A DNA stretch of 64,000 nt from a virus (taxonomy: Duplodnaviria; Caudoviricetes), in IMG/VR virus record IMGVR_UViG_2974782369_000001, positions 64,001 to 128,000 of that record; one strand, 5' to 3'. Numbering within the stretch: the stretch's first letter is position 1; every line of letters starts with the position of its first letter. This document shows, one piece after another, positions 4,326 through 11,109 of the stretch. The notes under the pieces are model-generated. The model saw nothing but the letters and a program-made list of their open reading frames with translations, was not told the DNA's origin and did no database searches. A program made the position numbers and the translations under genes.

Positions 4326-4430
4326 TAAGACCATCAGGGAAATGGTGGAGTTACTATGCTCCCCGCACCCTCAGCGGGGATATGAGAGACGGATTGGTAA
4401 CCCTGCCTAGTCTCGGTCAAGCGGCAGGGG
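4326..4430 (-). ncRNA. PhotoRC-II-like structured 5' leader of psbA
   Basis: Stems CCCUGCC/GGCAGGG (loop GAGAC can pair with downstream GUCUC), UCCCCGC/GCGGGGA and ACCAU/AUGGU just upstream of psbA; the position matches the known cyanophage motif. Confidence 0.75.
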
Positions 4431-4468
4431 CGGTAACAAAACTCAAAGGTCCGTTACATTTGTTTACC

Positions 4469-6871: not shown

Positions 6872-6953
6872 TACACATGAGAGGACTTGAACCTCCACAG
6901 ATTGCTCTACTGGAACCTAAACCCAGCGCGTCTACCAATTCCGCCACATGTGC
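6872..6953 (-). tRNA. tRNA-Leu(TAG)
   Basis: Acceptor GCACATG/CATGTGT, anticodon arm CTGGG-ttTAGgt-TCCAG, long variable arm, GGTTCAAGTCC T-arm; no encoded CCA. Confidence 0.95.
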
Positions 6954-6954
6954 G

Positions 6955-7270
6955 TGTGCTGGTTTTGACTGGACCAGAAACCAGGCGGGGTAACCCCATC
7001 CGCACCACCTGCTTTTGAGAGAAGCAGGAAACTCCGAGGGGTCGAAGACCCATCCCGACCAGGGTTGTTAACGTGTCTCCATCACGGGCATATTAGGGAT
7101 GACTCCACCAGTGTTTTTAACGTCTTTCCATGACGGGGCGGGGGCGCTAACCCCCCATGCACGCCACCAATTCTTTACAAGGAAAAATTGGAAACCTCGC
7201 GTCAACGAGTGTATAAACATCTCTCATGCGTTGAAAACCATCTAGTTTAAAGTCTATTGGCAAAGACTAG
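6955..7270 (-). ncRNA. Structured RNA, manA-like, built from repeated pseudoknot/hairpin modules upstream of tRNA-Leu
   Basis: ORF-free 310-nt region with three H-type pseudoknots, UGGYG motifs and two similar hairpin modules; family name from memory of tRNA-adjacent cyanophage RNAs. Confidence 0.6.
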
Positions 7271-8650: not shown

Positions 8651-8857
<207 letters not shown>

Positions 8858-10392: not shown

Positions 10393-10416
10393 AAAAAAGC
10401 ACCCTTACGGGTGCTT
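10393..10416 (-). terminator. Terminator after the YRG-peptide genes
   Basis: AAGCACCC-gtaa-GGGTGCTT plus U-run. Confidence 0.75.
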
Positions 10417-10435
10417 CATGTGCATATCAAGACAA

Positions 10436-10600
10436 TTATTTTTTATTATAGATTGGATCTATATTTAATAATTCATCAAAATATTCGCGCAAGTGAATTT
10501 TGTAACAGGACCAGTATGTTACCCCTCTATATTTGAGTTGGTAACAACTGGGTGGTCTGTTACTAGCATCCATATCATCAAAGTGATATCGATAATCCAT
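10436..10600 (-). CDS. 54-aa protein with a YRGVxY (DUF4278-like) motif
   Basis: MDYRYHFDDMDASNRPPSCYQLKYRGVTYWSCY...; TGATG coupling to the upstream gene. Confidence 0.65.
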   Translation of the reverse strand: MDYRYHFDDMDASNRPPSCYQLKYRGVTYWSCYKIHLREYFDELLNIDPIYNKK

Positions 10601-10764
10601 CACTTATTATAGGTGTGACCGCGATAGCAGAATGTGCCATGAGTTTCTTCAACACCTTGCTTGCACTCATATACTACACCACGATAAGCGGTGTGAGAAA
10701 TTTGTGCATCGTGCAGTGCTGCTGCTTTCTGGATCTGCTTCTTGATCAGAGTAAGTGTGTTCAT
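10600..10764 (-). CDS. DUF4278-like 54-aa peptide (two YRG motifs)
   Basis: MNTLTLIKKQIQKAAALHDAQISHTAYRGVVYECKQGVEETHGTFCYRGHTYNK; AGGAG SD; directly downstream of the riboswitch aptamer. Confidence 0.8.
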   Translation of the reverse strand: MNTLTLIKKQIQKAAALHDAQISHTAYRGVVYECKQGVEETHGTFCYRGHTYNK

Positions 10765-10798
10765 TTGTTTTCTCCTGAAATACTAAGGTTAGTTAAAA

Positions 10799-11012
10799 CC
10801 CGTTCCTTCAGTCGTTTGCGTCCTTGCTATCAAAACAATGGGGATCTGTATGATTAATCCAATGGATTAAGATATCAGATTTTTCAGCGGGAGTGAAAAG
10901 AGTTGTCTCTTGCAGTCCCTGCTTCAACCATTCATAGTCTTCACAGCGAAGATGATTCTCCACTGGGACATGACTAAAAAAGATGAGTGCTAATGATAAC
11001 ATAGGATGAACG
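10799..11012 (-). ncRNA. Glutamine-II (Downstream-peptide) riboswitch-like aptamer 2, split by an ORF in its P2 loop
   Basis: 5' half CGUUCA-UCCU-a-UGUUAUC (11012-10995); 3' half GAUAGCA-AGGA-CGCAAACGACUGAAGGAACGGG (10831-10799). Confidence 0.7.
10808..11002 (-). CDS. 64-aa protein nested inside the riboswitch aptamer
   Basis: GGAG SD 10 nt before the ATG; hydrophobic N-terminus, two Cys; the last codons (DAND-stop) are the conserved aptamer 3' strand. Confidence 0.7.
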   Translation of the reverse strand: MLSLALIFFSHVPVENHLRCEDYEWLKQGLQETTLFTPAEKSDILIHWINHTDPHCFDSKDAND

Positions 11013-11013
11013 C

Positions 11014-11068
11014 TCCGTTCCGCGACTTACTTGCGTCTCACCATCGGAAAGAGAGGGTGAGATGAACG
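11014..11068 (-). ncRNA. Glutamine-II (Downstream-peptide) riboswitch-like aptamer 1
   Basis: CGUUCA-UCUCACC-loop-GGUGAGA-CGCAAGUAAGUCGCGGAACGG; P1 CGUUC/GAACG and a 7-bp P2. Confidence 0.75.
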
Positions 11069-11074
11069 TAAATG

Positions 11075-11088
11075 GTAACTTTCGTTAC
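11075..11088. promoter_or_regulatory. NtcA-box-like palindrome GTA-N8-TAC
   Basis: GTAactttcgtTAC between the ATAAATA promoter and aptamer 1; could instead be a GAAA-tetraloop hairpin. Confidence 0.45.
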
Positions 11089-11093
11089 ACTTA

Positions 11094-11100
11094 TATTTAT
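11094..11100 (-). promoter_or_regulatory. Late promoter ATAAATA
   Basis: Direct match upstream of the riboswitch leader. Confidence 0.55.
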
Positions 11101-11109
11101 GAGAGACTA

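What the first reader, a model, noticed from the sequence alone, without database searches (positions are those of the whole stretch)
10799..11012. A riboswitch aptamer with a whole protein-coding gene inside its stem-loop
Seen in sequence (minus strand): a compact glutamine-II/Downstream-peptide-like aptamer (11068-11014: CGUUCA-UCUCACC...GGUGAGA-CGCAAGUAAGUCGCGGAACGG) is followed at once by a second CGUUCA-UCCU. The partner half of the second copy (AGGA-CGCAAACGACUGAAGGAACGGG) only appears about 180 nt later. The halves are complementary: P1 CGUUC/GAACG, and P2 UCCU-a-UGUUAUC / GAUAGCA-AGGA. The interval is exactly the 64-codon ORF 10808-11002. Its AUG lies in the 5' strand of P2, and its last codons (D-A-N-D-UGA) are the conserved 3' aptamer strand. 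Its GGAG Shine-Dalgarno abuts the 3' P1 strand of aptamer 1. Inference: a two-tier logic gate in which aptamer 1 gates translation of the nested ORF, a translating ribosome would melt aptamer 2, and aptamer 2 gates the downstream YRG peptide. Such a split aptamer would be missed by standard covariance-model scans. I know of no described riboswitch with a gene in its loop.
Basis: partly seen in the sequence, partly recalled or inferred. Interest (0 to 1): 0.9.

Follow-up and report, generated by a model that had tools for sequence, protein, structure and literature searches.

The report
Gene nested inside cyanophage glutamine riboswitch
In this T4-like cyanophage, a glutamine-sensing RNA switch built from two interlocked sensor units closes one of its hairpins around a real 64-codon protein gene, so sensing the host's nitrogen state and translating that gene should compete on one mRNA.

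Summary
On the minus strand, 11068-10801, a complete 64-codon ORF (11002-10808) lies between two halves of a glutamine-riboswitch-like unit. Its AUG is in the 5' strand of the closing helix and its last codons and stop are in the conserved 3' strand. In 163 unique related phage sequences, 152 carry an ORF there, and the 4-bp core of the closing helix P2(2) pairs in 162 of 163, with 13 strand combinations. The ORFs are under purifying selection (median dN/dS 0.21-0.36).

The units are interlocked, not independent. The first CGUUC pairs with the last GAACG. The middle GAACG-GAG-CGUUC forms a local hairpin holding the nested gene's GGAG. AGUCG/CGACU forms a shared P3.

ORF-less natural homologues pass Rfam's glnA threshold as one composite aptamer in 4 of 7 loci scanned. 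The likely mechanism, which is inferred, is that the folded glutamine-bound RNA masks the nested gene's start and frees the SD of the downstream IF17-like gene, while ribosomes on the nested gene prevent folding.

I found no paper describing this. A 16-codon uORF in a mycobacterial B12 aptamer is the nearest precedent. This scan has noted the same layout before in other phage genomes.

The parts
11064..11068 (-). Strand 1, CGUUC: 5' strand of the outer P1
   Evidence: Pairs with 10805-10801. In alignment A1, column 7 with 363 is C-G in 109 and U-A in 2 of 111, with none unpaired. Coordinates.
11036..11062 (-). P2(1) hairpin: UCUCACC / GGUGAGA with a 13-nt loop
   Evidence: All 4 core pairs show changes on both sides and 97.0% of cells are paired. 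It is recovered by unconstrained folding. In other phages this loop also holds an ORF.
11028..11035 (-). Junction CGCAAGUA
   Evidence: Matches the Rfam glnA consensus CGGAAGUA except for one letter (alignments). Invariant in A1, but it was part of the anchor of the second scan.
11023..11027 (-). P3 5' strand, AGUCG
   Evidence: Pairs with CGACU at 10814-10810. Column 80 with 357 is G-C in 106, G-U in 3 and A-U in 2 of 111, and the helix is 100% paired.
11008..11020 (-). Inner hairpin GAACG-GAG-CGUUC (strands 2 and 3). The nested gene's GGAG (11016-11013) spans the last stem pair and the loop.
   Evidence: Column 86 with 99 is G-C in 99 and C-G in 12 of 111, none unpaired. Over unique sequences, CAACG goes with CGUUG in 14 of 14 and GAACG with CGUUC in 149 of 149. 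GGAG is present in 137 of 152 ORF-bearing loci and 1 of 11 compact loci (Fisher p 1.2e-8). Recovered by unconstrained folding.
10994..11006 (-). P2(2) 5' strand: UCCU core, bulged A (the first letter of the AUG), then UGUUAUCA
   Evidence: Duplex with 10832-10821 is predicted at -12.7 kcal/mol. It is in the unconstrained MFE fold.
10808..11002 (-). Nested gene, 64 aa (phrog_13397), stop UGA at 10810-10808
   Evidence: ORF. Found in 37 phage records at 56-98% identity. phrog_13397 E 1.9e-46. Median dN/dS 0.21, and 180 of 180 pairs are below 1. AlphaFold model mean pLDDT 81, helices 20-32 and 38-49, Cys20 and Cys56 invariant.
10821..10832 (-). P2(2) 3' strand: UGAUAGCA + AGGA, lying within the last codons of the nested gene
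   Evidence: The core 4 bp pair in 162 of 163 unique sequences with 13 strand combinations. All 4 pairs have double changes and 99.8% of cells are paired.
10815..10820 (-). Junction CGCAAA of the inner unit
   Evidence: Conserved. It is read as codons in the nested gene, with no synonymous change.
10810..10814 (-). P3 3' strand, CGACU
   Evidence: Covaries with 11027-11023.
10801..10809 (-). Junction GAAG (10809-10806) and strand 4, GAACG (10805-10801), the 3' strand of the outer P1
   Evidence: Matches the Rfam consensus GAAGGAACG. AAACG co-occurs with CGUUU in strand 1 in 2 of 2 unique sequences.
10772..10811 (-). Expression platform of the downstream gene: CUGAAG (10811-10806) can pair with UUUCAG (10780-10775), which overlaps the SD AGGAG (10776-10772)
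   Evidence: Covariation at the third pair: G-C 75, G-U 47, A-U 32, A.C 0, with 5 odd rows that are probably wrong-site picks and 4 rows with no SD found. Present in the MFE fold.
10436..10764 (-). Output genes: two YRG-motif small proteins (10764-10600, 54 aa, phrog_545; 10603-10436, 55 aa), weakly DUF4278/IF17-like
   Evidence: phrog_545 E 1.4e-33. Pfam DUF4278 E 5.7e-4 (20.6 bits) and 3e-3 (18.3 bits), both below the 25.3-bit cut-off.
10396..10417 (-). Terminator-like hairpin with a T run, after the second YRG gene
   Evidence: 1 found against 0.5 expected. This is a consensus match only.

Best explanation
The stretch 11068-10801 (minus strand) is one type-1 (glnA-type) glutamine riboswitch sensor made of two interlocked units, not two aptamers in series.

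Helices:
- Outer P1: the first CGUUC with the last GAACG.
- Shared 5-bp P3: AGUCG (unit 1) with CGACU (unit 2).
- Inner hairpin: the middle GAACG and CGUUC, closed by a GAG loop.
- Each unit has its own P2 hairpin.
- P2 of the inner unit closes around a real 64-codon gene. Its AUG is in the 5' strand, and its last eight codons and the start of its stop codon are in the 3' strand, the junction and P3.

Shown here by comparison of sequences: the helices, the reality of the gene, a GGAG that goes with the gene, and an anti-SD helix for the downstream gene.

Inferred mechanism:
- When glutamine is high and the ORF is free of ribosomes, P2(2), P3 and outer P1 clamp across the ORF. The nested gene's GGAG and AUG are then held in helices. 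The CUGAAG segment is taken up by P3 and the junction, so the SD of the IF17-like YRG gene is free and that gene is ON, as in the Synechocystis gifB switch.
- When ribosomes translate the nested gene, or glutamine is low, the long-range helices cannot form. CUGAAG pairs with UUUCAG and the downstream gene is OFF.
- The result would be reciprocal expression of the nested small protein and the glutamine-synthetase-inhibitor-like peptides.
For: 1. Rfam RF01739 aligns ORF-less natural homologues as one composite aptamer, with this P1 and P3, at 46.4, 43.6, 39.6 and 35.6 bits against a cut-off of 35. That is 4 of 7 loci scanned. Unit 2 alone scores 30.1 and 32.8 bits. Unit 1 alone in the window scores 23.1 bits.
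2. On 111 distinct sequences, the interlocked model has 99.4% of cells paired, 11 of 23 pairs with double changes, and 0 of 500 shuffles as good.
3. The outer P1 has 2 compensatory C-G to U-A changes. The inner hairpin has 12 compensatory G-C to C-G changes. P3 goes G-C to G-U to A-U.
4. P2(2) pairs in 162 of 163 unique sequences with 13 strand combinations. Cognate arms pair better than non-cognate arms with the same core: -10.89 against -9.26 kcal/mol over 145 loci.
5. Unconstrained folding of the window RNA gives -93.1 kcal/mol, z = -4.47, and recovers P2(1), the inner hairpin, P2(2) over the AUG, and the CUGAAG/UUUCAG helix.
6. The gene is real: 149 of 152 split loci keep an ORF of at least 40 aa, spacing classes run in steps of 3, and median dN/dS is 0.21-0.36.
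7. GGAG is present in 137 of 152 ORF-bearing loci and 1 of 11 compact loci.
8. The anti-SD helix covaries, with no A.C combinations.
9. The final codons show no synonymous change in 37 of 37 loci.
10. The ON-switch logic, with an anti-RBS stretch released by glutamine, is the published model for type 1 (PMC6212724 and PMC6698751, passages read).
Against: - No binding or expression experiment exists; ligand sensing is inferred from homology.
- The window's composite cannot be scored by Rfam because of the 195-nt ORF. 3 of 7 loci gave no hit at gathering: two compact ones, and one with a gene in P2(1).
- Positive covariation for the outer P1 rests on 2 of 111 sequences, possibly a single event. 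All other P1 columns are invariant.
- The loci were fetched with exact patterns that fixed parts of the element, so invariance there is partly by selection.
- The sequences are related, so the shuffle statistics overstate significance.
- The MFE fold pairs strand 1 with AUGAAC at the YRG start rather than with strand 4.
- Closing a loop of about 190 nt is costly, and ribosome traffic in vivo is unknown.
- 15 of 152 ORF-bearing loci lack GGAG.
- The RNA-library data were too fragmentary to show a single transcript.
Confidence: 0.65

Rival explanations
1. One reading: two independent aptamers in series. Aptamer 1 is the first CGUUC with the first GAACG. Aptamer 2 is the second CGUUC with the last GAACG, split by the ORF. 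Each gates its own downstream ORF.
For: In the window and in 140 of 160 tabulated sequences, all four P1 strands are the consensus, so both wirings are possible. Each unit alone resembles the aptamer: 23.1 bits for unit 1 and 30.1 and 32.8 bits for loop-less unit 2. The tandem-riboswitch review treats glutamine doublets as independent pseudo-cooperative switches (PMC9481103, passages read). While the ORF is being transcribed, strand 4 does not yet exist, so strand 1 with strand 2 could form transiently.
Against: 12 of 111 sequences are unpaired in each of the two P1 helices under this wiring, while the interlocked wiring keeps all of them. Two sequences with CGUUU / CAACG / CGUUG / AAACG pair only as 1-4 and 2-3. 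Neither unit has its own P3; AGUCG and CGACU covary between the units. Each unit alone is below Rfam's cut-off, while the composite is above it.
Confidence: 0.08
2. Passive passenger. The riboswitch is real and interlocked, but the ORF is merely tolerated in a peripheral loop, as homing-endonuclease genes are in group I intron loops. Its translation has no regulatory link to the switch.
For: P2 loops are the variable part of the aptamer: 4 to 40 nt in compact forms. Different gene families occupy the same site (phrog_13397, phrog_504; S-RIM2 carries a 55-aa gene where S-RIM8 has the 64-aa gene), and P2(1) can carry phrog_6471. This looks like cassette exchange between conserved flanks.
Against: In the listing (its middle part was cut from view), the AUG is at +9 to +11 from CGUUCA, inside the helix, in the ORF-bearing sequences shown, apart from one wrong 5'-half pick. 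The stop lies inside or directly against the 3' strand in nearly all of them. GGAG in the inner hairpin tracks the presence of the ORF, 137 of 152 against 1 of 11. A ribosome on the first or last codons must physically open P2(2), P3 and P1, so some coupling is hard to avoid.
Confidence: 0.2
3. The conserved flanks are no longer a ligand sensor. They serve another purpose, such as a protein-binding site, an RNase site or recombination boundaries of a gene cassette, and the resemblance to the aptamer is a relic.
For: The window itself fails Rfam's thresholds. Glutamine binding is untested. One junction letter differs from the type-1 consensus (CGCAAGUA against CGGAAGUA).
Against: The junction nucleotides are invariant, even at synonymous sites of the gene. 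All five helices are kept by covariation. ORF-less homologues pass the curated threshold. The context is the usual one, upstream of DUF4278-like genes with an anti-SD helix.
Confidence: 0.05

Closest known systems
Glutamine-I riboswitch (glnA RNA motif, Rfam RF01739), for example the Synechocystis gifB/IF17 leader (Klahn 2018, PMC6212724)
   Same: Three-way junction P1/P2/P3. Conserved CGUUCA...GACG-AAGUA...GAAGGAACG. Sits before a DUF4278/IF17-like gene. A translational ON switch with an anti-RBS stretch. ORF-less homologues pass the Rfam cut-off.
   Different: P3 is not a simple hairpin. It opens into a second, permuted unit (inner P1 capped by GAG, its own P2, junction CGCAAA). One or both P2 loops hold a protein-coding gene of 50-75 codons. 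It is found in phages.
Tandem glutamine riboswitches (157 doublets and 4 triplets; Sherlock et al. [quoted passage not shown]
   Same: Two glutamine-sensor units side by side before one gene.
   Different: They are described as complete, independent pseudo-cooperative riboswitches, and that survey discarded candidates with intervening ORFs or long gaps. Here the units share P3 and swap P1 strands, and one unit encloses a gene. I could not read Ames and Breaker 2011 or any supplements, which may show such doublets in detail.
Translated uORF uMetE2 inside the P9-P10 extension of the M. tuberculosis metE B12 aptamer (Kipkorir et al. 2024, PMC11260477)
   Same: A translated ORF lies inside an aptamer. 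Translation and ligand-induced folding are presumed to be mutually exclusive. Translation lowers expression of the downstream gene.
   Different: That uORF runs from +123 to +170 (16 codons) and shows limited conservation. Here the genes are 50-75 codons, belong to conserved families under purifying selection, fill the whole loop, and have their start and stop built into the closing helix.
Tandem glycine riboswitch (two aptamers, one expression platform)
   Same: Two sensor units for one ligand that contact each other and act through one platform. This is my own knowledge plus the abstracts listed.
   Different: Glycine aptamers each keep their own P1 and dock by tertiary contacts. They do not swap strands, do not share a helix, and hold no gene.
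Group I introns with homing-endonuclease ORFs in peripheral loops (T4 td, nrdB, sunY). Recalled, not checked here.
   Same: A protein gene is carried in a loop of a functional structured RNA in a T4-like phage, and long-range helices close across it.
   Different: That is a ribozyme, not a ligand sensor. The ORF is a selfish endonuclease. No downstream gene is controlled.

Membership tests
Glutamine-I riboswitch (glnA RNA, RF01739) | Covariance-model score at or above the curated cut-off (35 bits) | tested here: inconclusive
   Window: no hit at gathering, and unit 1 alone scores 23.1 bits. The composite cannot be scored across a 195-nt ORF. Natural ORF-less homologues with the same conserved core motifs score 46.4, 43.6, 39.6 and 35.6 bits in 4 of 7 loci scanned. 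Of the other 3, two are compact and one has a gene in P2(1).
Glutamine-I riboswitch (glnA RNA, RF01739) | Three-way junction of P1, P2 and P3 kept by compensatory change | tested here: met
   P1 100% paired with 1 pair showing double change; P2(1) has 4 of 4 pairs with double change; P3 100% paired with G-C, G-U and A-U. 0 of 500 shuffles reach the observed values (the sequences are related, so this is not a probability).
Glutamine-I riboswitch (glnA RNA, RF01739) | Conserved junction nucleotides (CGUUCA, GaCGGAAGUA, GAAGGAACG) | tested here: met
   The alignments to the consensus match apart from G to C in CGCAAGUA. The same letters are in the window.
Glutamine-I riboswitch (glnA RNA, RF01739) | Selective binding of L-glutamine | not testable with these tools
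   Needs in-line probing or ITC.
Glutamine-I riboswitch (glnA RNA, RF01739) | Leader of a DUF4278/IF17-like gene, with an anti-RBS element | tested here: met
   Downstream ORFs hit DUF4278 weakly (E 5.7e-4 and 3e-3, both below the cut-off). The CU(G/A)AAG: UU(C/U)AG helix overlapping the SD covaries.
Glutamine-II riboswitch (Downstream-peptide motif, RF01704) | Score at or above 33 bits, and a pseudoknot architecture without a P3 three-way junction | tested here: not met
   23.0 bits in the window, and 23.1 and 20.3 bits on loop-less unit 2. A covarying P3 helix is present.
Independent tandem (pseudo-cooperative) glutamine riboswitches | Each aptamer closes its own P1 and is complete by itself | tested here: not met
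   12 of 111 sequences are unpaired in each P1 under that wiring, against 0 of 111 under the interlocked wiring. P3 forms only between the units.

The most novel reading that the evidence does not exclude
The element is a three-input RNA device. Because the two 5' P1 strands are identical, and so are the two 3' strands, the RNA can exchange P1 partners. During transcription, unit 1 could first close by itself (1-2), which leaves the nested gene's SD and AUG open. Only after the ORF has been transcribed and cleared of ribosomes can the interlocked form (1-4, 2-3, P3, P2(2)) lock in with glutamine. Ribosome traffic on the nested gene would thus act as a timer and second input to a nitrogen sensor. 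That would give reciprocal expression of a small two-cysteine protein and IF17-like inhibitors of host glutamine synthetase. The sensor unit and its nested gene may also have duplicated together: the three nested-gene families align cysteine to cysteine (hhalign E 1.6e-5 to 2.8e-4).
Probability: 0.3. Interest if true: 0.9.

Novelty: new variant of a known kind. Interest (0 to 1): 0.8.

Why it matters
Riboswitches are treated as non-coding leaders, and phages are said to use them rarely. McCown 2017 (PMC5473149, passage read) found glutamine aptamers in only two cyanophage genomes. Here the interlock junction is present in 289 isolate cyanophage records. In 152 of 163 unique sequences sampled, the sensor encloses a protein gene, which standard scans cannot bridge.

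If the coupling is real, it is a natural case of a metabolite sensor and ribosome traffic sharing one RNA fold. It would control phage-encoded, IF17-like candidate inhibitors of host glutamine synthetase, and so nitrogen flow in infected marine Synechococcus. It also shows that aptamer hairpin loops can host whole genes, which matters for how riboswitch searches and phage annotation are done. The nested proteins (phrog_13397, phrog_504, phrog_6471) have no known function, and this context gives a first handle on them.

Tried and rejected
1. A joined sequence may not be typed, and I took Infernal not to be in the script box, because it is not in the tool list (not checked). I used natural ORF-less homologues instead.

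2. RNA evidence. Four metatranscriptome assemblies hold the conserved parts only as fragments of 70-180 nt from mixed relatives. No piece spans the element. Depth is not comparable between parts. The fall in cover 5' of 11071 may only reflect divergence of P2(1) and the flank. The 'joints' that skip 174-190 nt are compact-form relatives, not splicing. No verdict on transcript structure.

3. Function of the nested protein. There is no Pfam hit. Atlas hits score at most 0.81 and are all hypothetical viral proteins. No PDB fold match reaches E 0.001; the rows at E of 2.3 and above are noise.

4. Hosts. One scan of bacterial genomes with the exact junction gave 18 hits. 11 lack the flanking motifs and look like chance. 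7 carry the element. Two of those sit beside an nrdB 71-73% identical to the phage's, and none is shown to be chromosomal. The pattern was narrow, so this says nothing about diverged host versions.

5. The sigma-70 scan finds no promoter directly upstream of the element. A CATAAATA at 11101-11094 resembles the T4-type late promoter motif; this is recalled and was not tested.

6. My heuristic for finding the first 5' half failed in 7 of 160 rows (AGTT... picks) and found nothing in 3 more. These rows were left out of alignment A1. A1 holds the window plus 110 unique complete elements with a compact P2(1) and a split P2(2), out of 163 unique sequences.

7. Literature. Searches found no description of a gene in a glutamine aptamer or of interlocked units. 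Ames and Breaker 2011 and Ren et al. 2015 are not held. Supplements are closed, so Additional file 1 of Weinberg 2010 and Tables S1 and S2 of Klahn 2018 could bear on the claim and were not seen.
Full report
**What the window is.** The region lies in a T4-like cyanomyovirus about 99% identical to Cyanophage S-RIM4. On the minus strand the order is nrdA, nrdB, a small ORF, the element, two YRG-motif small genes, a terminator-like hairpin, then talC. Rfam at gathering scores finds PhotoRC-II, wcaG and two tRNAs in the window, but nothing at the finding.

**Observation.** CGUUCA-UCUCACC...GGUGAGA-CGCAAGUAAGUCGCGGAACGG lies at 11068-11014. A second CGUUCA-UCCU lies at 11012-11003. The 64-codon ORF runs 11002-10808. 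AGGA-CGCAAACGACUGAAGGAACGG lies at 10824-10800. The 3' motif occurs twice against 0.04 expected. The 5' octamer alone is not above chance. At permissive thresholds, unit 1 alone scores 23.1 bits for glnA (cut-off 35) and 23.0 bits for Glutamine-II (cut-off 33).

**The layout is conserved and common.** The 64-aa protein is found by tblastn in 37 phage records at 56-98% identity. In 15 fetched isolate loci the halves flank an ORF every time. S-RIM2 carries a different 55-aa ORF in the same place.

Together with the isolates they give 163 unique sequences from the second 5' half to the second 3' half. Of these, 152 have 147-207 nt between the halves and 11 have 16-31 nt. The commonest spacings run in steps of three: 157, 160, 163, 166 ... 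190. In about 30 of 131 loci in the first set, and in 35 of 160 unique rows later, P2 of unit 1 is also split, by 182-250 nt. It then holds a gene of 65-75 codons whose stop abuts GACGCA. The junction sequence is in 289 isolate cyanophage records.

**The ORF is a gene.**
- 149 of 152 split loci keep an ORF of at least 40 aa starting at an ATG in the 5' arm.
- Median dN/dS, excluding the terminal codons, is 0.21 for the 64-aa class (180 of 180 pairs below 1) and 0.36 for the 53-aa class (784 of 794). It is 0.23-0.29 for three further classes.
- The proteins fall in phrog_13397 (the window's, E 1.9e-46), phrog_504 and phrog_6471, all of unknown function. One protein hits both of the first two.
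- Profile comparison aligns the three groups cysteine to cysteine (hhalign E 1.6e-5 to 2.8e-4, probability 41-79%). This suggests common origin but does not prove it.
- A model with mean pLDDT 81 shows two helices between two invariant cysteines. It has no PDB match and no Pfam hit.

On natural ORF-less loci, Rfam's glnA model passes its cut-off in 4 of 7 loci scanned (46.4, 43.6, 39.6 and 35.6 bits). It does so as one aptamer spanning both units. P1 is the first CGUUC with the last GAACG. P2 is hairpin 1. P3 is AGU/ACU, with the second unit as a 38-41-nt insert. The loop-less second unit alone reaches only 30.1 and 32.8 bits.

Covariation decides between the two wirings:
- CAACG in strand 2 goes with CGUUG in strand 3 in 14 of 14 unique sequences, and GAACG with CGUUC in 149 of 149.
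- Two unique sequences read CGUUU / CAACG / CGUUG / AAACG. These pair only as 1-4 and 2-3.
- AAUCG goes with CGAUU in 3 of 3.

On an alignment of 111 distinct elements, the interlocked model has 99.4% of cells paired, 11 of 23 pairs with double changes, and no unpaired cell in either P1 or in P3. The helix that actually spans the gene, P2(2), is common to both models and is strongly supported. It pairs in 162 of 163 unique sequences with 13 strand combinations, including UCCU/AGGA, CCCC/GGGG, UCUA/UAGA and GAUU/AAUC, and all four pairs have double changes. Its extension over the AUG pairs better with its own partner than with partners from other loci that share the same core (-10.89 against -9.26 kcal/mol, 145 loci).

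Caveats: the sequences are related; the fetching patterns fixed parts of the element; and the positive evidence for the outer P1 comes from two sequences.

**Thermodynamics.** Unconstrained folding of 11075-10755 gives -93.1 kcal/mol (z = -4.47). It recovers P2(1), the inner hairpin, P2(2) with the AUG, and a CUGAAG/UUUCAG hairpin. It pairs strand 1 with AUGAAC at the start of the YRG gene rather than with strand 4.

**Expression platforms.**
- The nested gene's GGAG spans the last stem pair and the GAG loop of the inner hairpin. GGAG is present in 137 of 152 ORF-bearing sequences and in 1 of 11 compact sequences (Fisher p 1.2e-8).
- For the downstream gene, CU(G/A)AAG overlaps P3 and the GAAG junction, and it can pair with UU(C/U)AG, which overlaps the SD. 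The third pair is G-C 75, G-U 47, A-U 32 and never A.C. This is the logic published for the type-1 switch, where glutamine frees an occluded ribosome-binding site.
- The last four sense codons of the nested gene show no third-position change in 37 of 37 loci fetched without that half. Interior third positions vary by 22-70%.

**Mechanism.** The structure is shown by comparison. The regulation is inferred and is set out under Best explanation.

**Comparison with what is known.**
- Klahn 2018 does not mention phages or nested ORFs.
- Sherlock 2022 counts 157 doublets and 4 triplets as pseudo-cooperative and filtered out arrangements with intervening ORFs.
- McCown 2017 found two glutamine aptamers in two cyanophage genomes.
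- Kipkorir 2024 shows a 16-codon translated uORF inside a B12 aptamer whose translation suppresses MetE. This is the nearest precedent.
- Eight full-text searches found no description of this layout.
- Ames and Breaker 2011, Ren 2015 and all supplements could not be read.

**Earlier notes of this scan.** The same layout was noted and followed up in other phage genomes, with the same reading. A first-stage note on this stretch already called it interlocked. I tested the wiring myself.

**Verdict.** This is a new variant of a known riboswitch class, with a conserved gene inside a sensor hairpin and an interlocked two-unit topology. Interest 0.8.

Noticed in passing
window 11063-11068 and 10759-10764 (minus strand): GUUCAU of the first 5' half is complementary to AUGAAC at the start codon of the downstream YRG gene. 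The unconstrained MFE fold uses this 6-bp helix instead of the outer P1. It could be a further OFF-state pairing that hides the YRG start, or it could be chance. Some relatives start the gene differently.
   Followed up: no
window 11075-11101 (minus strand): CATAAATA (11101-11094) resembles the T4-type late promoter motif, and GTA-N8-TAC (11088-11075) resembles an NtcA site. Both lie just upstream of the element. Relatives have TATAAATA or a TATAAT inside a short palindrome there. The motif names are recalled, and earlier notes of the scan flagged the same.
   Followed up: no
window 10436-10603 and 10396-10417 (minus strand): A second YRG-motif ORF (55 aa; DUF4278 E 3e-3, below cut-off) overlaps the end of the first by 4 nt. 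It is followed by a terminator-like hairpin, which suggests one operon of nested gene, YRG1 and YRG2.
   Followed up: partly
L020, L025, L029, L064, L083 and others (IMG/VR loci): In about a fifth of the sampled sequences, the P2 loop of the first unit also holds a gene (phrog_6471-like, 65-75 aa, with a WHMSCERF motif). Its AUG is at +10 or +11 and its TAG or TAA stop abuts GACGCA. L029 has the gene in unit 1 only.
   Followed up: partly
L198, L199, L200, L187, L190, L193 (genome contigs): Assemblies labelled Nonlabens (a 188-kb contig), Euryarchaeota MAG, Verrucomicrobiales MAG and a Synechococcus MAG (a 194-kb contig) carry the phage-type element. L198 and L199 also hold a cyanophage-like nrdB. 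These are probably cyanophage DNA binned or co-assembled with other organisms.
   Followed up: partly
window 4346-4441, 6944-7036, 6872-6953, 8651-8724 (minus strand): PhotoRC-II RNA (55.6 bits), wcaG RNA (65.1 bits) and two tRNAs are called by Rfam. The wcaG hit abuts and overlaps the start of a tRNA by 10 nt.
   Followed up: no
window 10820-11013, runs X1-X4: Metatranscriptome contigs join the two halves directly, skipping 174-190 nt. One has CCGAAG in between on the plus strand. These are compact, gene-less relatives present in the same RNA libraries.
   Followed up: no
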